This document shows positions 799 to 37,654 of a DNA stretch of 37,654 nucleotides, piece by piece. Made by a program: the position numbers and the translations under genes. Numbering within the stretch: the stretch's first letter is position 1; every line of letters starts with the position of its first letter. The DNA lies in IMG/VR virus record IMGVR_UViG_2529292719_000024. The stretch is one strand, 5' to 3'. Origin of the DNA: a virus. Its lineage: Duplodnaviria > Heunggongvirae > Uroviricota > Caudoviricetes. The notes under the pieces are model-generated. The model worked only from the letters and a program-made list of their open reading frames with translations. It had not been told where the DNA came from and did no database searches.

Positions 799-1203
799 TT
801 AAGGCGTTTCTTTAATCCCATCAACGAATCCCTGCAACTCCTCCACCGTGCCATTAAACACATTAAAATCCACCGGACCATTGATGCCATCTACCTGTCC
901 ACGGTCGGAATGCTGCCAGAAGCGCCAGGCCATTCCGTCATTGTCCGGACGACGTTGATAATAGTGAGCCACCCACCACGGATATTCATTAAAATAGCCC
1001 GCCAGATTCGTGTGATAAAAAACGGCTCCTGAGTAAATAATCGGCTTTTTTCCCGTGCGTTTTTCTACCATTTTTAGCCACTGACTTACCCGCTTGCGTA
1101 ATTCTTTTGCCGATAATTTTCCCCGTTCTTCTACGTCCAGCACGGCAGGGAAATCTGATGCGCCGCGCGATAAATGCACTCTATCTTGTGCGATAAATGG
1201 CAT
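799..1203 (-). pseudogene. GH25-family muramidase-like protein, N-terminally truncated fragment
   Basis: 134-aa ORF with GH25-like C-terminal motifs (LDVE, PWWVAHY, WRFWQHSDRGQVDGINGPVDFNVF) but missing the ~60-80 N-terminal residues; the frame closes with a stop 4 codons upstream of the first Met, right beside the invertase stop. Confidence 0.45.
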
Positions 1204-1233
1204 CCACGCGGCGTTTCATTATTTGAAAAAGAA

Positions 1234-1806
1234 TTACATTTCAGGTTGCGTTATGACAGTCCCAACAGGGTGGTAGCGGTAGATCGTTGACAGTCCAATA
1301 TCATAGATAATTGCCAGCCGCTTTCTGTCATACCCTTTCTGGAGCAATCTTGCGATCTGCTCATGCTGCTCCTTCGTCAGTTTCGGGCGACGTCCTCCAA
1401 CTCTTCCTTGTGCTCGCGCAGCAGCCAGTCCTGCCAGCGTGCGCTCAACTATCAGTTCACGCTCCATTTCTGCCAGTGCACCCATCATATGAAAAAAGAA
1501 CCTTCCCATCGGAGTGCTGGTATCGATTGAATCCGTCAGACTGCGAAAATTGACACCTTTTGCGCGTAGCTCTTCTGTGAGAGCAATGAGGTGTTTCATT
1601 CTTCTACCCAACCGATCCAGCTTCCAGACCACCAATGTATCCCCTCTTTTAAGGCACTTTAAAGCGCGTTTCAGGCCTGGTCGTTCCGACTTGGTTCCGC
1701 TCATTTTGTCCTCAAAAATCTGTTCACATCCTGCGCACATTAATGCATTGCGTTGCAAATCTGTGTTTTGGTCATTTGTTGACACACGTATGTAGCCAAT
1801 CAGCAT
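1234..1806 (-). CDS. serine DNA invertase (Gin/Pin/Hin family)
   Basis: ATG at 1806 gives MLIGYIRVSTNDQNTDLQRNAL..., the catalytic-serine N-terminus of Gin/Pin-type invertases, with a C-terminal HTH. The ORF track's longer 1935 start adds a non-homologous 43-aa extension. Lies next to inverted repeats flanking tail-fibre cassettes. Confidence 0.9.
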   Translation of the reverse strand: MLIGYIRVSTNDQNTDLQRNALMCAGCEQIFEDKMSGTKSERPGLKRALKCLKRGDTLVVWKLDRLGRRMKHLIALTEELRAKGVNFRSLTDSIDTSTPMGRFFFHMMGALAEMERELIVERTLAGLAAARAQGRVGGRRPKLTKEQHEQIARLLQKGYDRKRLAIIYDIGLSTIYRYHPVGTVITQPEM

Positions 1807-1901
1807 TAAAAATACTCCCTTTTGAGTGGTTAAAGTACTGAGATAATGTGGGGAGGATTTGAGAGATAAACGTTGGTTTAGGAGAAGGCTCGGCGCTACC
1901 C

Positions 1902-2061
1902 GTTGGTGTGCCTGTTCCGTGGCCCACCGCCACACCGCCAGCAGGCTGGTTACAGTGCAACGGAGCTACGTTCACTAAAGAACAATATCCTGTTCTGGCC
2001 AGAGTCTACCCGACCCTCCGTCTTCCCGATTTACGCGGTGAGTTTATCCGTGGATGGGACG
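1902..2061. repeat. left inverted repeat (~160 bp) of the invertible tail-fibre segment
   Basis: Plus-strand 1902-2061 is near-identical to the reverse complement of ~3296-3460; both encode VPVPWPTATPPAGWLQCNGATFTKEQYPVLARVYPTLRLPDLRGEFIRGWDDGRK. Boundaries +/- 5 bp. Confidence 0.85.
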
Positions 2062-2390
2062 ACGGGCGCAAAGTTGATACAGGACGTAAGTTGCTGTCCG
2101 CACAAGGGGCAACGCTGTTAAGAACAGCAATGCTGGATTATTATAACCAGGACACTACGGGAACCTCGGGGATAGTCGGCATGGGATTCAACAATGAAGA
2201 TTCCATTACAGACCTTCGTGAGGGCAGCTTTAAAATGCCGGACGGGACAACATTCAGCGATCCTGTCGTGGCAATGTCAGACAATGGTATGCAGGCTACT
2301 ATTCTGACCTCTATCAGAAGCGGGTATGCGAAGGGTATCACTGTCAGACCCCGTAGCATTGCACTTAATTACATTGTGAGGGCAGTTTAA
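1902..2390 (+). CDS. alternative tail-fibre C-terminal cassette (Sv'-like), promoterless and silent in this orientation
   Basis: Frame opens inside the inverted repeat with the same peptide as the expressed fibre, then diverges into a different 105-aa C-terminus ending IALNYIVRAV (expressed fibre ends IAFNYIVRAA). The track's start is GTG inside the repeat, so it is a fusion cassette, not a stand-alone gene. Confidence 0.7.
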   Translation, partial: VGVPVPWPTATPPAGWLQCNGATFTKEQYPVLARVYPTLRLPDLRGEFIRGWDDGRKVDTGRKLLSAQGATLLRTAMLDYYNQDTTGTSGIVGMGFNNEDSITDLREGSFKMPDGTTFSDPVVAMSDNGMQATILTSIRSGYAKGITVRPRSIALNYIVRAV

Positions 2391-3004
2391 TGAGTAACAC
2401 TGCAGTTCTGGATGAAAACGGTATCGCCACTGTAGCGGGCGAGATCACTGTATATCACTATGACGAGGAAACCCGGGAATACACCTCATCCTCTGTGGAG
2501 TATCTCGCCCTTGGGGTGGGTACTCCGGCACATTCGTGCGCCGATGCACCGCCGGAGGCAATTTCGGGTTACGTGGTTTGCCGGACTGCCACGCTGAACG
2601 GGTGGGAGCATGTGCCTGATCACCGCGGCGAGACGGTATACAGCAAGGAGAACGGTAACCCCGTTCTGATTACCCAACCGGGTGATTACCCGGCGGACAC
2701 CACCACAAAACAGCCGGCCACGCCATGGGATACCTGGAACGGTGAGGCGTGGGTAACCGATACTGAACGGCAGCGAGCCGCAGAACTGGAGGTTGCCAGA
2801 CAGCAACGCCAGCAACGGGTGAAACAGGCGATGGCGTCCGTCGATCTTATCAACCTCAAACTGCGTGCTGGTCGCAGTCTGACACCAGAAGAAACGGCAA
2901 AACTGAACGCCGTGCTGGATTATATCGACGAGCTGAACGCACTGGATATCAGCACGGCACCTGAAATCAGCTGGCCGGAAGCGCCACTGGCACTTGCCAG
3001 CTGA
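2390..3004 (+). CDS. tail fibre assembly protein (Tfa / Mu U-like chaperone)
   Basis: 204 aa; motifs WEHVPDHRGETVY, WNGEAWVTDTE and C-terminal DISTAPEISWPEAP match the lambda Tfa / Mu U pattern; start overlaps the stop of the Sv' cassette. Confidence 0.85.
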   Translation: MSNTAVLDENGIATVAGEITVYHYDEETREYTSSSVEYLALGVGTPAHSCADAPPEAISGYVVCRTATLNGWEHVPDHRGETVYSKENGNPVLITQPGDYPADTTTKQPATPWDTWNGEAWVTDTERQRAAELEVARQQRQQRVKQAMASVDLINLKLRAGRSLTPEETAKLNAVLDYIDELNALDISTAPEISWPEAPLALAS

Positions 3005-3010
3005 ACGGTA

Positions 3011-4609
3011 TCAAGCCGCCCTCACGATATAGTTAAACGCGATATTGCGGGGGCGGGTTATGTTAAAGAATGCTCCGTTTAATTCGGCTTTTGCGCGACT
3101 GTTTGTTCCACCCAGAATTGCGTACCACAAATAATCGCTACGGTAATTCCCCGCAAACACCTTATCGCCGCCATAGTCAATATTATTTCCGTTACTCATG
3201 TACGAGATATCCAGCGAAGAATCGTTATCGTCATGACCGCCGACCAGTGTACCTTTCTGCCATGAAAGCAACTTACGCCCCTCGTCAATCTTGCGCCCGT
3301 CGTCCCATCCACGGATAAACTCACCGCGTAAATCGGGAAGACGGAGGGTCGGGTAGACTCTGGCCAGAACAGGATATTGTTCTTTGGTGAACGTAGCTCC
3401 GTTGCACTGTAACCAGCCTGCTGGCGGTGTGGCGGTGGGCCACGGAACAGGCACACCAACAGGCAATGCAGAGCCTTCCCCCAAACCAAGGTAATTGAGG
3501 ACATCTTTTATACTGCCCTTAGCGATAATAGCGCGACCAATAGCTGTAAGGGTTGCCAGCGCTGCGCGGTCTGCTCCGGTAAAATAAGGCAACCGATCTG
3601 CTGCAGTGGCAAGTCCTGCCAGAGCAGTGAGCGTGGCATCTGCCGGTTGTTTTCCGTTTGCCAGATCGTATGCAGCCTTGACCGCTTTCGGTGTGGCGGC
3701 CAGTATTTCAGACGTGCTGTTGATGGCACTGCTCAATTGTATGGTGCCTTTTGCCGTCAGCGAGGCAGCAGGCACTCCCGTTATCTGACTCCACGGGTGA
3801 GTGTGGCTGACGGGCGCCTTGCCGGCTGCAAGGTCGTATGCAGCCTTGACCGCCTTCGGCGTGGCAGCCTCAGTTTCTGATTGACTGTCCGTGGCGCTGC
3901 TCAGTTGTACGGTGCCTTTTGCCGTCAGCGAGGCAGCAGGCACTCCCGTTATCTGACTCCACGGGTGAGTGTGGCTGACGGGGGCCTTGCCGGCAGCCAG
4001 GTCATATGCAGCCTTGACGGCCTTTGGTGTGGCGGCCAGCGTTTCAGAGGTGCTGTTGGTTGCACTGCTCAGTTGTACGATCCCTTTACGGGTCGTTGTT
4101 GCATCCTGGGCTGTGTATTTTCCCCGGGCCAGATCATACGCGATTTTCACAGCCTTCGGCGTGGCAGCCTCAGTTTCTGATTGACTGTCCGTGGCACTGC
4201 TCAGCTGTACGGTGCCTTTTGCCGTCAGCGAGGCAGCAGGCACTCCCGTTATCTGACTCCACGGGTGAGTGTGACTGACGGGTGCCTTGCCGGCTGCAAG
4301 GTCGTATGCAGCCTTGACGGCTTTTGGTGTGGCGGCCAGCGTTTCAGAGGTGCTGTTGGTGGCACTGCTCAGTTGGGTGAACCCCTTAGCTGTCAGTGTC
4401 GCGTCCGGGTGGTTACGGGAACGTACGTGTTCAGCCAGTGACTGTGCGGCTTCCTCCGTTTTTTTCTTCAGCCATTTCGTCCTGTTTGCCAGTTGCCGGG
4501 GGGCTCGATTTGATATCCCGTCAGCACCACCCAGAACCGGATCTGATGTCTCCAGTTGATAGATATTTTCTTCCCACTTTTCTGTTTCATTCAGGTTTCC
4601 CATAATCAA
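3011..4609 (-). CDS. tail fibre protein (Mu S / lambda Stf-like), constant shaft plus currently fused variable C-terminus
   Basis: 532 aa; repeated phage fibre motif GxxQLSSATxSxSExxAATPKAVKxAYDLA...PVSHTHPWSQITGVP; the C-terminal 147 aa lie inside the invertible segment (inverted repeat plus variable end). Confidence 0.9.
   Translation of the reverse strand: MIMGNLNETEKWEENIYQLETSDPVLGGADGISNRAPRQLANRTKWLKKKTEEAAQSLAEHVRSRNHPDATLTAKGFTQLSSATNSTSETLAATPKAVKAAYDLAAGKAPVSHTHPWSQITGVPAASLTAKGTVQLSSATDSQSETEAATPKAVKIAYDLARGKYTAQDATTTRKGIVQLSSATNSTSETLAATPKAVKAAYDLAAGKAPVSHTHPWSQITGVPAASLTAKGTVQLSSATDSQSETEAATPKAVKAAYDLAAGKAPVSHTHPWSQITGVPAASLTAKGTIQLSSAINSTSEILAATPKAVKAAYDLANGKQPADATLTALAGLATAADRLPYFTGADRAALATLTAIGRAIIAKGSIKDVLNYLGLGEGSALPVGVPVPWPTATPPAGWLQCNGATFTKEQYPVLARVYPTLRLPDLRGEFIRGWDDGRKIDEGRKLLSWQKGTLVGGHDDNDSSLDISYMSNGNNIDYGGDKVFAGNYRSDYLWYAILGGTNSRAKAELNGAFFNITRPRNIAFNYIVRAA
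3296..3460. repeat. right inverted repeat of the invertible tail-fibre segment
   Basis: Reverse complement matches 1902-2061 with 1-2 mismatches; lies inside the tail-fibre coding sequence at the constant/variable junction. Confidence 0.85.
3590..4440. repeat. three tandem ~300-bp coding repeats in the tail-fibre shaft
   Basis: Near-identical blocks at ~3590-3880, 3881-4180 and 4181-4440 (e.g. gtccgtggcgctgctcagttgtacggtgccttttgccgtcagcgaggcagcaggcactcccgttatctgactccacgggtgagtgtg); the same antisense peptide recurs in three plus-strand ORFs. Confidence 0.75.
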
Positions 4610-5196
4610 CTGCTCCCGTGGTTATAACTGCCATCATGGATGGCGGTATTGTTATAGCGAATGGCCACAGACTGATACTCCAGGCTGGCCAGATGGCAGC
4701 GGGCCGGTGCAAATGCAGCGAGCGTCTGACGCAGCATCGCGGCCTGATCGTTAGTAATGGGCTGTTTCAGAATAACGCGATAAACCGCCCAGGCGGCTGC
4801 ATCTCCATGAACAAACAGTCCGTTATAGCTGCGATTGCCGTCGTAACTGAGACGACCTGTGCCTTCAATCAGATCCACTTCACCAAAGCCAAAACGGCGG
4901 ATAACTTCCCGGATTGACCACGGCGTCCCTTTATACCGGTGTAGTTCGATGGCTGCTTTTATAAGCATGCGGCGAACATCGTCCGATTCCGCCAGCTCCC
5001 AGCCATCGCCAGACAGTGAGAACTGCTCGCCCAGCCATGGCAGCGCAGAACTGTCGACGATATCGACGAGAAAGACCATCAGTACGCTCAGGTCGATGTT
5101 ATCCAGCCGCCCTGCCAGTCTTCCCAGCGTCCTGAGACTGATATCACCCTCAAGCGGTGGCGGGAGTTGTAATGGCTCAGTCATCAGACACTCCAC
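4606..5196 (-). CDS. tail protein I-like (Mu gp48 / P2 gpI family)
   Basis: 196 aa, sits between the baseplate J-like gene and the tail fibre gene as in P2/Mu baseplate modules; start overlaps the upstream gene. Confidence 0.65.
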   Translation of the reverse strand: MECLMTEPLQLPPPLEGDISLRTLGRLAGRLDNIDLSVLMVFLVDIVDSSALPWLGEQFSLSGDGWELAESDDVRRMLIKAAIELHRYKGTPWSIREVIRRFGFGEVDLIEGTGRLSYDGNRSYNGLFVHGDAAAWAVYRVILKQPITNDQAAMLRQTLAAFAPARCHLASLEYQSVAIRYNNTAIHDGSYNHGSS

Positions 5197-6280
5197 TCAT
5201 GTTAAGTGTGATCGCCGTACAGTTTGCCCATTCGTTTTCTGCCACCACCCTCAGTGCCGGTGTCACCAGTTCAACCTGGTACACCCCGGAAACGGACAAT
5301 GCACTGATAATCTGGCTGGGGACAATATCACGCCCCAGCGTGGCGGCACGTGATGCCACCCAGTTCTGTATGGCGCTGTTAGCGGCATCTTTTACAGACC
5401 TGGCATCCTGATCACGATAGATCGTAATCCTGGCTTCAATGGTGTAATCCACCTTCACTGGTGTTTTAGCCCGCACTGTATCAGTGAGTGGCCTGACTTT
5501 CTCATCAGAGCAGAAACTCTCTACCAGCGTGAGAACACCGCCGTCCGGCAGACCGGTACTGAGCAGCGGATACAGATCTACGGTCCCGGGAACCGGGGAA
5601 AGCATAGCAACATCGACAATGTTGGGATGGGCCTGCATGGCATGAAAGCGGTATGCGCCACGGCTTCCGGCATTGGTGAATGACTCCGGGGCCAGCCTGA
5701 TACGCTCCCGGAGCCTGTCATCGTCTTCCTGTTCTGAACCGCCGGAACTGGCCGTCAGATTGCTCACCAGCAGGTCGACGTTATCAATCTCATCGAGTAA
5801 CTGACTGACCTGCGCAGGTTGCCAGCCGTTACCAGCGGTACCGGGTTCGGTACAGGTGGACGTGACATTGACCAGCAGCAATCCGGCCTTCAGTACCACA
5901 TCTGTATCGGTGGCAAAAATAACGCTGTCGGAAGCGCTGACGCGGGTGCCTGCCGGGATCAGCACATCAATGGTCAGTGCCTCATCCACAGAGAACTGAA
6001 GTGTGGTGGTGGCAGGCTGCGCGGCAAGGCGGTATACACCAACCAGTTCTCCGAGGTAATCAATCATCGGCTCTCGTGAAAAGGCGACCAGATTCTGCTT
6101 TGCTGCCTCCTGTACCGCAACCCTGACCAGCATTTCGCGATAGGCCCACAGATCAATCAGCAGACGTTCTGCCTGTGCCGGGTACAGCGTTTTGCCGGTA
6201 TCCGCTTCATACTTCGCAATCATTTCTGCCGTGATTTTGTCGGCATCGCGTTCAATAAAATCGGGTTCTGTCAGCGCCAT
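5177..6280 (-). CDS. baseplate J-like protein (Mu gp47)
   Basis: 367 aa; size and position (after the W-like gene, before the I-like gene) fit the baseplate J family. Confidence 0.75.
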   Translation of the reverse strand: MALTEPDFIERDADKITAEMIAKYEADTGKTLYPAQAERLLIDLWAYREMLVRVAVQEAAKQNLVAFSREPMIDYLGELVGVYRLAAQPATTTLQFSVDEALTIDVLIPAGTRVSASDSVIFATDTDVVLKAGLLLVNVTSTCTEPGTAGNGWQPAQVSQLLDEIDNVDLLVSNLTASSGGSEQEDDDRLRERIRLAPESFTNAGSRGAYRFHAMQAHPNIVDVAMLSPVPGTVDLYPLLSTGLPDGGVLTLVESFCSDEKVRPLTDTVRAKTPVKVDYTIEARITIYRDQDARSVKDAANSAIQNWVASRAATLGRDIVPSQIISALSVSGVYQVELVTPALRVVAENEWANCTAITLNMSGVSDD

Positions 6281-6618
6281 AGCAACTCCTGAGTCCGGGT
6301 CTGTCCGTCTGAGCCTTTCCAGCTCACCCGGAGCGTAAGATGTTCGCCGTCGACGGCGGGTTTAACTGACATAAGCTGGCAGCGGGGCTCCCAGCGTCGG
6401 ATGGCATCGACGGATTCGCGCACCACATGCGGAATGGCCCGGTCTACAGGCCAGTCGATATAAAGATGCAGATTGCTGCCGAACTCCGGGCGATGCGGGT
6501 CGCTGCCGCGGGGAGTCCGCAGGATAATTTGAATCGCCTGCCGGATATCATCCAGCCCCCGGACAATTTCGCCGGGAGCCTGCAGGGTCGGTTGCCAGAA
6601 TACTGAGGTTGTTTTCAT
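6271..6618 (-). CDS. baseplate wedge protein (P2 gpW / T4 gp25-like)
   Basis: 115 aa; size and position between the spike and J-like genes. Confidence 0.7.
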   Translation of the reverse strand: MKTTSVFWQPTLQAPGEIVRGLDDIRQAIQIILRTPRGSDPHRPEFGSNLHLYIDWPVDRAIPHVVRESVDAIRRWEPRCQLMSVKPAVDGEHLTLRVSWKGSDGQTRTQELLWR

Positions 6619-6672
6619 GGGGGCAGTATTGCCCCCGTGCGGGAACGCTGATATTAAAGGCGTTTAAAAAGC

Positions 6673-7269
6673 TCAGTGGGAGTGGTGGCTGGAGTTTTCG
6701 CCATCAGACAACATACTGCCCGTGGCATGGGCATTCCCTTTAATCTCGATATTGCCATGGATGGTCGCGGTAACACCTTCACCACCAGAACCCGCCATGC
6801 CTCCTTCGTAAATCAGCTTACCCCTGACACGCAGATCTCCGGTAAGTTCGGTTTCCGGTGCGTCAATCGTGGCTTTCTGTGTTTTCAATACCACATCAGC
6901 ACCACACTCAATGACAATATGCTCAATGCCGCCCCGGATGATCAGAGTGTGCGTCTTCCGGTTGTAGCTGTACTCTGCACCATCAGCAAACCGGGTTCCC
7001 CGGATATTTTTGTCACTGAACGGTGGTTTATCGACGTCTGAATACACCGCGCCCAGAATAACACCATCCTCGCCGTTGGCATCGAGCAGCACCTCAACCT
7101 GCTCCCCCACGTCAGGGAGCCAGTAATCTTTGTTATCCTGGGTATTGCGCTGCAGCACGTTAAGCCAGTTTGTGCGCAGGTTATCGCATTCAGGCAGACG
7201 AACGCGGGCCTGAACCCTGTCGGCATCAACGGCACTGACCGTACCGACCTGACGAGTGACACCAGTCAT
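6673..7269 (-). CDS. baseplate spike protein (P2 gpV-like)
   Basis: 198 aa; His-rich C-terminal tip (ENSSHHSH), a feature of gpV-type spike apex domains; follows the hub-like gene. Confidence 0.7.
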   Translation of the reverse strand: MTGVTRQVGTVSAVDADRVQARVRLPECDNLRTNWLNVLQRNTQDNKDYWLPDVGEQVEVLLDANGEDGVILGAVYSDVDKPPFSDKNIRGTRFADGAEYSYNRKTHTLIIRGGIEHIVIECGADVVLKTQKATIDAPETELTGDLRVRGKLIYEGGMAGSGGEGVTATIHGNIEIKGNAHATGSMLSDGENSSHHSH

Positions 7270-8438
7270 TTTTTCTTCTCTCTTATTACTGTGGACGTGC
7301 TGCCGTCCGGTTTATAGATGGTCAGCATCCGGGTTTTGCCGATTTTTTTACCTTTCTTCGCCTTGCCCTGTGTGATCGGCCCCCGTGCCACTTCCAGCTC
7401 TGTGGTGTAGCCGCTGTTACGGTCAAACGCATGGCGGGCAGTGGTTATGAGCCATGGCCCGGATAACTGCCCAAAACCCACCAGTTCAATTTTGTTGCCT
7501 GCTGTCAGTTGAGGTGTTCCCGTCAGCGTCAGGGAGCCGTTCTGCTGGTATTCGTTATGTCTGGCCAGTGCTGAATCCGCTTTAATCCGGGCACTGTCCG
7601 GGTCGCTGACGCGGCTGTTAACTTTAAGTGAGTCAGCGCTGGTAACCTTACCACCTTTGAGCTTTTTGTCGCTTTCACGGGTACCACCATCAGCTTCGTA
7701 GACGATCAGTTTTTTACTGCTGCTTTTCTGGTGTTTTACCTTTGCAGATTTATAGACCCGGTTGATGGTGTCACGCAGGGAAAAGCGGGCCACATCCTGC
7801 GGTTTTAACTGCCTGACCGGCTCCTGACTGCGCAGTGTGGCCAGATGAGAAAAAATCAGCTGGTCACTGACCACTTTCACTGCATAACCATACTCGCTGG
7901 CCAGCCGGCGCAGAAAACCCACGTCGGTTTCAGCATACTGGGTCCCCCGGTCGATTCTGATGGACTCAATGCTGCCCACCAGTTTCAGCCGGTGCTTTCT
8001 GGCAATCCGCCCCGCAACAGCTGCCAGCGTGGTGTTCTCAAAACCACGACTGGTTTTAGTCCGCAGGGCACTGTTAACCGAGGTGGCCACCCCACGGATA
8101 GAAACAACGGAAGCGGGCGAACTCACTTCGATCTCGTCTATAGAGAACGTACCGCAGGACAGCAGCTTCTCGTCCTGATAGCCCATTTTCAGCGTCAGCG
8201 TGTCCCCCTTGCCCGGATACCACTTATCCAGCCAGCGGCCATCGGTGTCGTCCAGCTCCACCTCAATGGTATCGGACTCATTTTTGATGTTATCGCTCCA
8301 GGTCACACGGGTGACATAAGGCGCGATATCAGAGGTGATGTTTTTCTGCAGATACCACAGAGTGAACACCGGTGTCAGCACATCGCTGACGCCGGTTAAC
8401 GCTGATGTGACTTGCGCAGTGCTGTTTATCTCAGCCAT
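7266..8438 (-). CDS. tail / baseplate hub protein (P2 gpD-like, Mu gp44-like)
   Basis: 390 aa, lysine-rich C-terminus; placed between the X-like and spike genes. Confidence 0.65.
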   Translation of the reverse strand: MAEINSTAQVTSALTGVSDVLTPVFTLWYLQKNITSDIAPYVTRVTWSDNIKNESDTIEVELDDTDGRWLDKWYPGKGDTLTLKMGYQDEKLLSCGTFSIDEIEVSSPASVVSIRGVATSVNSALRTKTSRGFENTTLAAVAGRIARKHRLKLVGSIESIRIDRGTQYAETDVGFLRRLASEYGYAVKVVSDQLIFSHLATLRSQEPVRQLKPQDVARFSLRDTINRVYKSAKVKHQKSSSKKLIVYEADGGTRESDKKLKGGKVTSADSLKVNSRVSDPDSARIKADSALARHNEYQQNGSLTLTGTPQLTAGNKIELVGFGQLSGPWLITTARHAFDRNSGYTTELEVARGPITQGKAKKGKKIGKTRMLTIYKPDGSTSTVIREKKK

Positions 8439-37241: not shown

Positions 37242-37654
37242 GCGACTCGTCAGAACCGTATTGATATTTACTGAGAGCTCAGATCAACTTTCCAGGGCAA
37301 CAGATCGCGTACCCGGTTTGCCGGCCAGTCCTGGATATGTTCAATGACGTAACGCAGCCACTTTTCTGACTCCACATTGTTCAGACGGCATGTGCCGATC
37401 AGCGAGTACAACACCGCCGCATGTTCACCACCGCTGTCGGAACCCGCGAACATCCAGTTTTTCCGGCCTACGGCCACTCCCCGTAAGGCGTTCTCTGCGA
37501 TGTTGTTGTCGATTTCCACCCAGCCATTACTGCAGTACACGTTCAGTGCATCCCACTGTTTCAGCAGGTATGCGAACGCTTTTGCCGTATCTGAGTGACG
37601 CGACAGTGTTTTCATCTGTTGCTGTATCCAGTCATACAGTGACTGCATCAGTGG
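37238..37654 (-). mobile_element. IS66-family insertion sequence, terminal 0.4 kb (continues beyond window)
   Basis: Terminal sequence GTAAGCGACTCGTCAGAACCG at 37238, then an ORF whose C-terminus matches the IS66 TnpC pattern ([26 protein letters not shown]...LPWKVDL). Confidence 0.75.
37268..37654 (-). CDS. IS66-family transposase (TnpC-like), C-terminal part; 5' end outside window
   Basis: 126-aa C-terminal translation with recalled IS66 transposase motifs; the frame is open to the window edge. Confidence 0.75.

What the first reader, a model, noticed from the sequence alone, without database searches (positions are those of the whole stretch)
1234..4609. Invertase-driven invertible tail-fibre segment with long inverted repeats and only one Tfa chaperone gene
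A Gin/Pin-type invertase lies next to a ~1.56-kb segment bounded by ~160-bp inverted repeats (1902-2061 and 3296-3460) that sit inside the fibre coding sequence. Inversion would swap the fibre's C-terminal 92 aa for the alternative 105-aa end at 2062-2390 and place the Tfa gene (2390-3004) downstream of it. The current fibre tip has no cognate Tfa in its own orientation, and the repeats are far longer than the ~30-bp crossover sites I recall for Mu. One host-range state may therefore be chaperone-independent or non-functional, or a second chaperone gene has been lost.
Basis: partly seen in the sequence, partly recalled or inferred. Interest (0 to 1): 0.5.

Follow-up and report, generated by a model that had tools for sequence, protein, structure and literature searches.

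The report
Invertible phage tail-fibre tip switch
A prophage in E. coli carries a working DNA-flipping switch that swaps the receptor-binding tip of its tail fibre. It is an ordinary member of a known class, but one of its two tips can never be co-transcribed with the only fibre-assembly chaperone gene.

Summary
A Gin-like serine invertase (1806..1234, minus strand) sits beside a 1,617-bp invertible segment (1873-3489). The segment holds two alternative tail-fibre tips and one tfa gene.

Inversion happens in nature. 73 complete E. coli genomes have the window's orientation and 64 have the flipped one. Two isolates with the same insertion site differ only by this inversion, which maps the crossover to 7 bp (1873-1879 / 3483-3489).

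The crossover interval lies in the core of 26-bp pix/gix-like sites at the outer ends of the repeats. The 229-bp repeats are therefore not oversized recombination sites. They are the conserved collar-domain coding start of both tips, which resemble the T4 gp37 tip.

"Only one Tfa" is correct but not a local defect. Relatives in P2-like, P1-like and Mu-like elements carry 3 to 10 tip cassettes with a single tfa, as I recall for p15B Min. One such locus was shown experimentally to invert (EPEC, Goldberg 2014).

In this family the Tfa N-terminal domain does not co-vary with the tip, which suggests a generalist chaperone. Tip B is convergent with tfa, so the fibre operon can never transcribe both. 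How tip B folds is unresolved. This is a new member of a known kind, of modest interest.

The parts
1234..1806 (-). Serine DNA invertase of the Gin/Pin/Min type, 190 aa, catalytic Ser9
   Evidence: Resolvase plus HTH_7 domains. PHROG 125 'DNA invertase', E 1e-94. Matches Mu Gin structures 4M6F/3UJ3 at E 2e-93 and 1e-92 over residues 1-181.
1722..1785 (-). Candidate Fis-dependent recombinational enhancer inside the 5' part of the invertase gene. Two 15-mers: CDS 22-36 GTGTCAACAAATGAC and CDS 71-85 GCGCAGGATGTGAAC, with centres 49 bp apart
   Evidence: Pattern scan. Both blocks are conserved in the alignment with the 5' end of Mu gin. This is inferred and was not tested.
1861..1886 (-). Left 26-bp crossover site. 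The minus strand reads TTCTCCTAAACC AA CGTTTATCTCTC, with the core dinucleotide at 1873-1874
   Evidence: It aligns with Mu gixR at the same distance from the invertase start codon. The crossover maps to 1873-1879.
1870..2098 (.). Left arm of the 229-nt inverted repeat. It encodes the collar-domain start of the silent tip
   Evidence: Pfam Collar PF07484, E 4e-15.
1873..3489 (.). Invertible segment, 1,617 bp, measured between the two site cores
   Evidence: Flipping exactly this interval converts locus L001 into L006 with 0 differences over 9,545 bp.
1875..2390 (+). Silent tip cassette A, 171 aa from GLGEGS to the stop codon, with no start codon of its own. It is always followed by tfa
   Evidence: All 11 cassettes of tip cluster 1 are adjacent to tfa.
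2390..3004 (+). Tail fibre assembly protein (Tfa), 204 aa. It is the only one in the window and is antisense to the fibre operon in this orientation
   Evidence: Caudo_TAP PF02413, E 1e-27. PHROG 105. No other tfa-like sequence in the window.
3011..3487 (-). Expressed tip cassette B, 158 aa, fused to the constant part of the fibre. It is convergent with tfa
   Evidence: Homologous to the T4 gp37 tip (2XGF), E 1e-15, including the C-terminal NIAFNYIVRxA motif.
3264..3492 (.). Right arm of the inverted repeat. It encodes the collar-domain part of the expressed tip
3476..3501 (+). Right 26-bp crossover site, TTCCCCCAAACC AA GGTAATTGAGGA, with the core at 3488-3489
   Evidence: The inner half is one mismatch from the e14 repeat printed in the PMC4272514 supplement.
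3490..4603 (-). Constant part of the tail-fibre gene, with five Phage_fiber_2 repeats
   Evidence: Pfam PF03406, E 1e-93, and Collar. The start codon follows the 530-aa RefSeq CDS in L001.

Best explanation
This is a Gin/Pin/Min-type site-specific inversion switch at the right end of a transposable prophage. Pfam hits (rve transposase, AAA ATPase) and the Bcepmuvirus label on a related phage record point to a Mu/BcepMu-like phage.

The serine invertase recombines two inverted 26-bp sites that share an AA core (1861-1886 and 3476-3501). This flips 1,617 bp. The flip exchanges the C-terminal receptor-binding tip of the fibre: tip B (158 aa) is expressed now, and tip A (171 aa) is expressed after the flip.

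Both tips resemble the T4 gp37 tip. Each has a conserved collar domain, a variable middle, and a conserved C-terminal ...RPRN(I/V)AFNYIVRAA. The 229-bp inverted repeat is simply the shared collar-coding start of the two cassettes. Recombination happens only at the outer edge of the repeat.

The single tfa is hard-wired downstream of tip A. This is the minimal two-cassette form of an architecture seen in related P2-like, P1-like and Mu-like elements, where 3 to 10 tip cassettes share one tfa (as I recall for p15B Min). In that family the Tfa behaves as a generalist and does not track the variable part of the tip.

Shown here: the anatomy, inversion in nature, the crossover position, the family-wide single-tfa pattern, and the lack of Tfa/tip co-variation.

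Inferred: dependence on a Fis enhancer, that one Tfa can serve all tips, and how (or whether) tip B folds when tfa is antisense.
For: Anatomy.

Invertase: E 2e-93 to Mu Gin structure 4M6F, with Ser9 present.

Both orientations occur in complete E. coli genomes. 73 have the window's orientation and 64 the flipped one. Two genomes carry one copy in each orientation (H20/H51 and H27/H52).

AVS0786 and AVS0501 have the prophage in the same interrupted gene and are identical over 9,545 bp apart from the inversion. Zero differences remain only when the flip boundaries lie within 1873-1879 / 3483-3489. Boundaries deeper in the repeat or outside the core leave 2 to 54 mismatches. Inner half-sites swap while outer halves stay fixed in flipped loci.

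The site and its spacing to the start codon match Mu gixR/gin.

The tip is homologous to the T4 gp37 tip.

Single-tfa arrays: SF-173 has 3 tips. EPEC E2348/69 has 3 tips, with inversion shown by PCR and WGS and 215-bp repeats (PMC4272514). IMG/VR loci have 4 to 8 tips. Plasmid p1-HYM1 has 10 collar hits (9 full-length, one partial) and 1 tfa. 211 plasmids hold 839 collar cassettes.

All 51 full-length cassettes without an adjacent tfa are intact ORFs ending in the conserved motif. Eight tip clusters occur both with and without an adjacent tfa.

Tfa N-domain identity is about 0.62 regardless of tip identity. In 448 locus pairs, Tfa N-domains more than 80% identical sit next to tips less than 30% identical. 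One Tfa N-domain class sits next to 29 of 36 tip clusters.

Lambda Tfa can replace T4 gp38 (Montag et al. 1989, as cited in PMC9659904).
Against: - No promoter-like site that could drive tfa in the antisense state was found in 1100-4800. In the window's orientation Tfa is therefore probably not made from this element, and nothing shows that tip B folds without it.
- A published survey of this tip family states that a tfa lies directly downstream of every member examined (PMC9659904). The tfa-less cassettes break that rule.
- A 38%-identical relative of tip B in Klebsiella phage Kp4845-2 does have its own adjacent tfa.
- The generalist-Tfa idea rests on a co-variation analysis of one sample of loci fetched for similarity to tip B, not on any binding or folding data.
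- The enhancer is only a conserved-sequence inference.
Confidence: 0.85

Rival explanations
1. The tip-B state is functional without a cis-expressed Tfa. Tip B would fold unaided, or use a Tfa supplied in trans by another prophage in the same cell.
For: - The tipB-tfa-tipA block is conserved at 98% or more in 205 of 5,426 E. coli genomes.
- The block is shared at about 99-100% with a P1-like Salmonella Typhi plasmid.
- All 51 full-length tfa-less cassettes in the family are intact.
- Both orientations are about equally common.
- Cross-substitution of Tfa-type chaperones is known (PMC9659904).
Against: - No direct data exist.
- Polymorphism in tip B is too low to show purifying selection: 3 synonymous-only versus 4 amino-acid-changing codons.
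- Orientation ratios in lysogens say nothing about virion function.
- Homologous tips elsewhere keep an adjacent tfa.
Confidence: 0.4
2. The tip-B state is a dead end. Tfa is required, is antisense and silent, and virions made in this orientation lack working fibres. This would be a tolerated cost of the compact architecture.
For: - Tip B is convergent with tfa and there is no crossover site between them, so no isomer can co-orient them.
- No promoter candidate was found for tfa.
- Tips of this family are otherwise reported always to have a tfa directly downstream (PMC9659904).
Against: - The same layout persists across Mu-like, P2-like and P1-like elements with intact cassettes. That is hard to reconcile with a useless cassette.
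- In EPEC about 90% of a clonal population sits in the reference orientation of the large inversion. In the reference annotation that orientation has tfa antisense to the fibre gene.
Confidence: 0.3
3. Tfa is made in both orientations, from an unrecognised promoter inside the segment or reading in from the invertase side.
For: It would neatly explain one tfa serving many tips. The promoter scan also failed to find the invertase's own promoter, so the scan is insensitive.
Against: - No sigma-70-like site was found on either strand in 1100-4800.
- tfa overlaps the stop codon of tip A, so any internal promoter would have to lie in variable coding sequence.
- On the invertase side the prophage ends after about 80 bp.
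Confidence: 0.2
4. This is a degenerate Mu-type G segment that recently lost its second chaperone gene (U) by deletion.
For: Classical collar-tip segments with two tips and two tfa genes exist (L023, L031, L045, L071). A distant relative of tip B has its own tfa.
Against: - The two convergent stop codons are only 6 bp apart, and no second tfa-like sequence was found anywhere in the window.
- The identical module is widespread and is shared between unrelated phage types.
- Tightly packed tfa-less cassettes, each starting with its own site, are the rule in arrays of 3 to 10 tips.
Confidence: 0.1
5. Inversion results from general homologous recombination between the 229-bp repeats rather than from the invertase.
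For: The repeats are long and similar enough for RecA.
Against: The natural inversion pair is reproduced with zero mismatches only if exchange occurred in the 7-bp core at the outer edge. All repeat-arm polymorphisms travel with the segment.
Confidence: 0.02

Closest known systems
Phage Mu G segment / Gin
   Same: - The invertase matches Mu Gin structures at E 2e-93 with Ser9 conserved.
- The 26-bp site aligns with gixR at the same distance from the start codon, and the 5' gene region is conserved.
- The switch fuses a constant fibre part to alternative C-terminal parts at the right end of a transposable phage.
   Different: - Mu has 34-bp repeats and two chaperones, arranged S-U / U'-S'. Here there are 229-bp coding repeats and one tfa.
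- The tips here are collar/gp37-like.
- This Tfa finds no solved structure by sequence.
- No com/mom genes follow the invertase. The phage backbone differs: Pfam gives rve and AAA_22 proteins, and a related record is labelled Bcepmuvirus.
Min multiple-inversion system of plasmid p15B and P1-like phage-plasmids
   Same: - Loci with this architecture hold collar-type tip cassettes that each start with a crossover site, one tfa, and an invertase 84% identical to the window's (tblastn).
- In the P1-like loci a truncated second invertase gene lies alongside.
- The very same tipB-tfa-tipA module occurs in a P1-like Salmonella plasmid.
- The description of p15B itself (six sites, psi-min) is from my memory of Sandmeier et al. 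1990-92. Those papers were not held.
   Different: The window has only two sites and two tips. It lies in a chromosomal transposable prophage, not a P1-like plasmid.
EPEC E2348/69 P2-like prophage 'shufflon' (Goldberg et al. 2014, PMC4272514)
   Same: - It has 215-bp, 92%-identical repeats that begin ACCTTGGTTTGGGGGAAGGCTC, homologous to the window's repeat.
- It has three tips, one tfa and an adjacent invertase.
- Coexisting isomers were shown by WGS and PCR.
   Different: It has three sites and four isomers, on a P2-like backbone. The authors do not discuss the chaperone.
e14 P segment / Pin
   Same: The inner half of the crossover site is nearly identical: e14 AAACCTTGGTTTGGGAGAAGG versus window AAACCTTGGTTTGGGGGAAGG.
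   Different: From memory, and not tested here, e14 carries two tfa genes (tfaE and tfaP) and a different kind of tip.
T4 gp37 / lambda Stf receptor-binding tips with gp38/Tfa chaperones
   Same: The collar domain and the C-terminal NIAFNYIVRxA motif are shared. A Tfa lies downstream of tip A. Chaperones of this group can substitute for one another (PMC9659904).
   Different: That family is described as always having the assembly gene directly downstream. Tip B and the other tfa-less cassettes surveyed do not.

Membership tests
Gin/Hin/Cin/Pin/Min (Din) serine-invertase switches | Small serine recombinase with an N-terminal catalytic domain, an active-site serine, and a C-terminal HTH | tested here: met
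   PF00239 plus PF02796. E 2e-93 to Gin structure 4M6F, with Ser9 aligned.
Gin/Hin/Cin/Pin/Min (Din) serine-invertase switches | Two 26-bp imperfect-palindrome crossover sites in inverted orientation with an identical 2-bp core | tested here: met
   Sites at 1861-1886 and 3476-3501, both with an AA core. They align to Mu gixR and resemble the e14 repeat.
Gin/Hin/Cin/Pin/Min (Din) serine-invertase switches | The segment really inverts, with exchange at the site core | tested here: met
   73 versus 64 genomes in the two orientations. An isogenic pair differs only by the flip, with the crossover confined to 7 bp. Not tested within a single culture.
Gin/Hin/Cin/Pin/Min (Din) serine-invertase switches | Fis-bound recombinational enhancer in cis, within the 5' part of the invertase gene | tested here: inconclusive
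   Two 15-mers 49 bp apart are conserved with Mu gin. No binding data. The consensus match is partial.
Mu-type G segment (Sv-U / U'-Sv') | Each alternative tip is followed by its own assembly gene | tested here: not met
   Only one tfa in the segment and in the whole window. Mu reference layout.
Min-type multiple-inversion arrays | Three or more crossover sites giving more than two isomers | tested here: not met
   Only two sites within 3 mismatches in the window's segment. Sister loci of the same prophage have three (L005, L003, L014).
Min-type multiple-inversion arrays | Tfa-less collar-tip cassettes that each begin with a site, sharing a single tfa | tested here: met
gp37/Stf-type fibre tip with a Tfa chaperone | Collar domain plus conserved C-terminal NIAFNYIVRxA motif | tested here: met
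   PF07484. Alignment to 2XGF.
gp37/Stf-type fibre tip with a Tfa chaperone | Assembly gene directly downstream of the tip | tested here: not met
   Met for tip A, whose stop overlaps the tfa start. Not met for the expressed tip B, which is convergent with tfa.
Caudo_TAP tail fibre assembly proteins | Match to PF02413 above its threshold | tested here: met
   97.3 bits against a cutoff of 22.1. Chaperone activity is not testable here.

The most novel reading that the evidence does not exclude
Fibre tips of the gp37/Stf type may not each need their own chaperone gene. In this two-tip switch, and in relatives with up to 10 tips, a single generalist Tfa is used. It is necessarily antisense to the fibre operon whenever the cassette convergent with it (here tip B) is expressed. 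If tip-B virions are infectious, these tips either fold without a cis-expressed Tfa or the Tfa is expressed independently of orientation. Either outcome would break the reported 'tfa always directly downstream' rule and would matter for engineering host range.
Probability: 0.4. Interest if true: 0.5.

Novelty: new member of a known kind. Interest (0 to 1): 0.3.

Why it matters
As a switch it is textbook biology: Mu, P1, e14 and p15B-type host-range variation. The value here is mostly clean-up. The long repeats are explained, the crossover is mapped, and natural inversion is documented.

One point is worth a specialist's attention. A widespread set of collar-tip cassettes, 2 to 10 per locus in Mu-like, P2-like and P1-like elements, runs on one chaperone gene. 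That gene cannot be co-transcribed with at least one of the tips.

If those states are functional, one Tfa could support many engineered tips, or none might be needed. That would be useful for retargeting phages and tailocins. If those states are dead ends, it would put a number on a hidden cost of these bet-hedging switches.

Tried and rejected
- Promoter and terminator scan of 1100-4800. It found no sigma-70-like site on either strand, so it cannot explain tfa expression in the antisense state. It also missed the invertase's own promoter, so it is insensitive.
- Test for purifying selection on tip B across 9 loci. Only 7 polymorphic codons (3 synonymous-only, 4 with an amino-acid change), so uninformative.
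- Sequence search of the Tfa against solved structures. No hit, so similarity to the Mu Tfa structure could not be shown.
- Structure prediction of the Tfa was not run. The only alignment I had came from fetched loci, which the tool does not accept, and a single-sequence model of a chaperone for a trimeric fibre would say little.
- Tfa N-domain versus collar domain. Pairwise BLASTP gave E 0.002, but hhalign gave probability 10%. I treat this as a hint only.
- The original p15B Min papers (Sandmeier et al.) are not in the library. What I say about p15B itself is from memory.
- The D6-like plasmid paper, the Pantoea tailocin preprint and the SfMu paper describe classical layouts with one chaperone per tip, and do not address single-tfa arrays.
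- Phage vB_EcoM-673R5 (L090) has several cassettes, but the record is fragmented and frameshifted, so I did not use it.
- The homologous-recombination explanation is rejected by the crossover mapping.
- The recent-deletion explanation is judged unlikely.

Full report
**1. What is in the sequence**

The window holds a transposable prophage. It encodes an rve-family transposase and an AAA ATPase, and a closely related partial phage record is classified as Bcepmuvirus. Matches to other E. coli genomes begin at about window position 1150-1156, which marks the prophage end.

At that end lie the following features:
- A 190-aa ORF on the minus strand, 1806..1234.
- A silent fibre-tip cassette, 1875-2390 on the plus strand.
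- A tfa gene, 2390-3004 on the plus strand.
- The tail-fibre gene on the minus strand, 4609..3011. The equivalent RefSeq CDS corresponds to an ATG at 4603.

The ORF at 1806..1234 is a serine invertase. It has Resolvase and HTH_7 domains and matches PHROG 125 'DNA invertase'. It matches Mu Gin structures 4M6F and 3UJ3 at E 2e-93 and 1e-92 over residues 1-181. Ser9 aligns with the serine of 4M6F, and 3UJ3 carries Ala at that position.

The inverted repeat is real and larger than reported. Its arms are 1870-2098 and 3264-3492, 229 nt, 93% complementary. tfa is a Caudo_TAP protein, and it is the only tfa-like sequence in the whole 37.6-kb window.

**2. Where recombination happens and why the repeats are long**

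At the outer edge of each repeat arm there is a 26-bp imperfect palindrome:
- Left site, 1861-1886, reads on the minus strand TTCTCCTAAACC AA CGTTTATCTCTC.
- Right site, 3476-3501, reads TTCCCCCAAACC AA GGTAATTGAGGA.

The left site aligns with Mu gixR at the same distance from the invertase start codon. The inner half of the right site differs by one base from the e14 repeat printed by Goldberg et al..

A natural experiment maps the crossover. E. coli AVS0786 and AVS0501 carry the prophage in the same interrupted gene. Over 9,545 bp they are identical except for the inverted segment. Flipping 1873-3489 in silico gives zero differences. Moving the boundaries 10 or more bp inward, or any distance outward, leaves 2 to 54 mismatches.

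Exchange therefore occurred within 1873-1879 / 3483-3489, which is the site core. All polymorphisms of the repeat arms travelled with the segment. This excludes homologous recombination along the repeat.

The rest of the repeat encodes the phage tail collar domain that begins both tips (PF07484). The tips are homologous to the T4 gp37 receptor-binding tip, PDB 2XGF, including the C-terminal NIAFNYIVRxA. The long repeat is thus shared coding sequence, not an oversized site.

From memory, the P1 C segment has even longer repeats (about 0.6 kb) with cix sites at their outer ends. I did not check this here.

**3. Does it invert in nature?**

Of 5,426 complete E. coli genomes, 73 contain the 3.6-kb region in the window's orientation. 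Another 64 contain it in the computed flipped orientation. Two genomes hold one copy in each orientation (H20/H51 and H27/H52).

The flip keeps the reading frame. It replaces the last 158 aa (92 unique) with 171 aa (105 unique) and places tfa immediately downstream.

**4. The single Tfa**

This is not peculiar to this element.

Sister prophages have a third cassette with its own site and still only one tfa (SF-173 and the 'P88-like' record).

A scan of viral contigs with tip B returned 80 loci. Several of them have 4 to 8 collar cassettes, one tfa, an invertase and, in the P1-like loci, a truncated second invertase gene. That is the layout I recall for p15B Min. The original papers were not available.

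Further examples:
- A P1-like plasmid, p1-HYM1, has 10 collar hits (9 full-length, one partial) and one tfa.
- 211 plasmids carry 839 such cassettes.
- The EPEC E2348/69 P2-like prophage has three tips, one tfa and 215-bp repeats homologous to those here. Its isomers were demonstrated by WGS and PCR (PMC4272514).
- The exact tipB-tfa-tipA module occurs at 98% or more in 205 E. coli genomes. It also occurs at about 99-100% in a P1-like Salmonella Typhi plasmid.

A recent local loss of a second chaperone gene is therefore unlikely.

**5. What the comparative data say about the chaperone**

The broader survey used the loci held: the viral contigs plus the E. coli and phage records fetched by then.

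- All 51 full-length cassettes without an adjacent tfa are intact ORFs ending in the conserved C-terminal motif.
- Eight tip clusters occur both next to a tfa in some loci and without one in arrays. The tfa-less tips are therefore not a separate chaperone-independent class.
- Tip B's own cluster (8 of 8) is never adjacent to a tfa. A 38%-identical relative in Klebsiella phage Kp4845-2 is.
- The first 100 residues of the Tfa stay about 62% identical whatever the tip. In 448 locus pairs, Tfa N-domains more than 80% identical sit beside tips less than 30% identical.
- One Tfa N-domain class sits next to 29 of 36 tip clusters.

From memory of North et al. 2019, the N-terminal domain of Mu's Tfa is the variable, fibre-binding domain. 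I did not check this here. If the same holds in this family, the lack of co-variation fits a generalist chaperone. It would recognise the conserved collar or C-terminal parts of the tip, which I recall lie together in the gp37 tip structure. Lambda Tfa is known to substitute for T4 gp38 (PMC9659904).

**6. What remains unexplained**

There is no crossover site between tip B and tfa, so tip B and tfa are always convergent. No isomer of any array can co-orient them. In arrays with three or more sites, other tfa-less tips can be expressed with tfa downstream in the same direction. This follows from the site orientations.

I found no promoter-like sequence that could drive tfa in the antisense state. 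On the invertase side the prophage ends within about 80 bp.

Three possibilities remain for the tip-B state:
- Tip B folds without a cis-expressed Tfa, unaided or with one supplied in trans.
- tfa has an unrecognised promoter.
- The state yields defective fibres.

Sequence cannot decide among them. My estimates are roughly 0.4, 0.2 and 0.3.

**7. Comparison with known systems, and verdict**

The element works like Mu G/Gin, P1 C/Cin, e14 P/Pin and p15B Min.

It meets the defining features of the Din invertase family that I could test: enzyme, sites, and inversion at the core. The enhancer is only inferred. It fails the Mu-type criterion of one chaperone per tip. It has too few sites to count as a multiple-inversion array itself, but its cassettes and single tfa are of that type.

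It is a new member of a known kind. It is ordinary as a switch, with one modestly interesting open question about chaperone use.

Noticed in passing
L092 (LT905089.1, Salmonella Typhi plasmid) 5001-7562; window 1873-3489: The same tipB-tfa-tipA module occurs in a P1-like, roughly 97-kb Salmonella Typhi plasmid. The collar is 100% and the tfa 99% identical at protein level. There it sits beside a Min-like invertase (84%) and a truncated second invertase. The whole invertible module has therefore moved between unrelated phage types.
   Followed up: partly
window 2495-2665 (Tfa residues 36-92) versus window 3264-3500 (collar): The conserved N-terminal part of the Tfa weakly resembles the fibre's own collar domain, sharing YL.LG.G..P...PP..G..C......PD.RGE. 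BLASTP gives E 0.002, but hhalign probability is only 10%. It could be chance, or a hint about how the chaperone docks.
   Followed up: partly
window 3011-3060 (3' end of the tip ORF): The last roughly 50 nt of the tip ORF, which encode RPRNIAFNYIVRAA, match at about 96% in most of the 698 E. coli genomes with any hit. The full tip B is present in only 205. Together with the collar, this gives two conserved anchors flanking a variable middle, which suits cassette exchange by homologous recombination.
   Followed up: no
window 799-1203 and 37268-37648; prophage ends at about 1150 and about 37260: The prophage is flanked on one side by the C-terminal part of a GH25 muramidase gene (profile positions 79-180 of 180). 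On the other side is an IS66 transposase fragment. The two flanks are not halves of one gene, so there has been a rearrangement or an insertion at a junction.
   Followed up: partly
H20/H51 (NZ_OZ547152.1) and H27/H52 (NZ_CP025851.1): Two E. coli genomes carry two copies of this prophage region at different chromosomal positions, one in each orientation. Across the genome hits the region also sits beside many different host genes. This fits a transposable phage.
   Followed up: no
window 3660-4409: The fibre shaft contains three copies of a 282-nt repeat at 80-89% identity. These correspond to Phage_fiber_2 repeats. I did not check whether shaft length varies among strains.
   Followed up: no
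L016 5469-5645, L017 4009-4185, L091 13103-13279, L092 7386-7562: P1-like loci have a truncated 5' fragment of a second invertase gene (about 59 aa, 59% identical) next to the active one, in the opposite direction. I recall this being described as psi-min in p15B.
   Followed up: no
L087 (EPEC E2348/69) 4890-7001: In the EPEC P2-like prophage the tail genes on the far side of the invertase (annotated 'phage tail protein' and 'tape measure') point toward the invertible segment. Read-through from a convergent late operon could in principle transcribe tfa when it is antisense to the fibre gene. No such operon exists on that side in the window's prophage.
   Followed up: no
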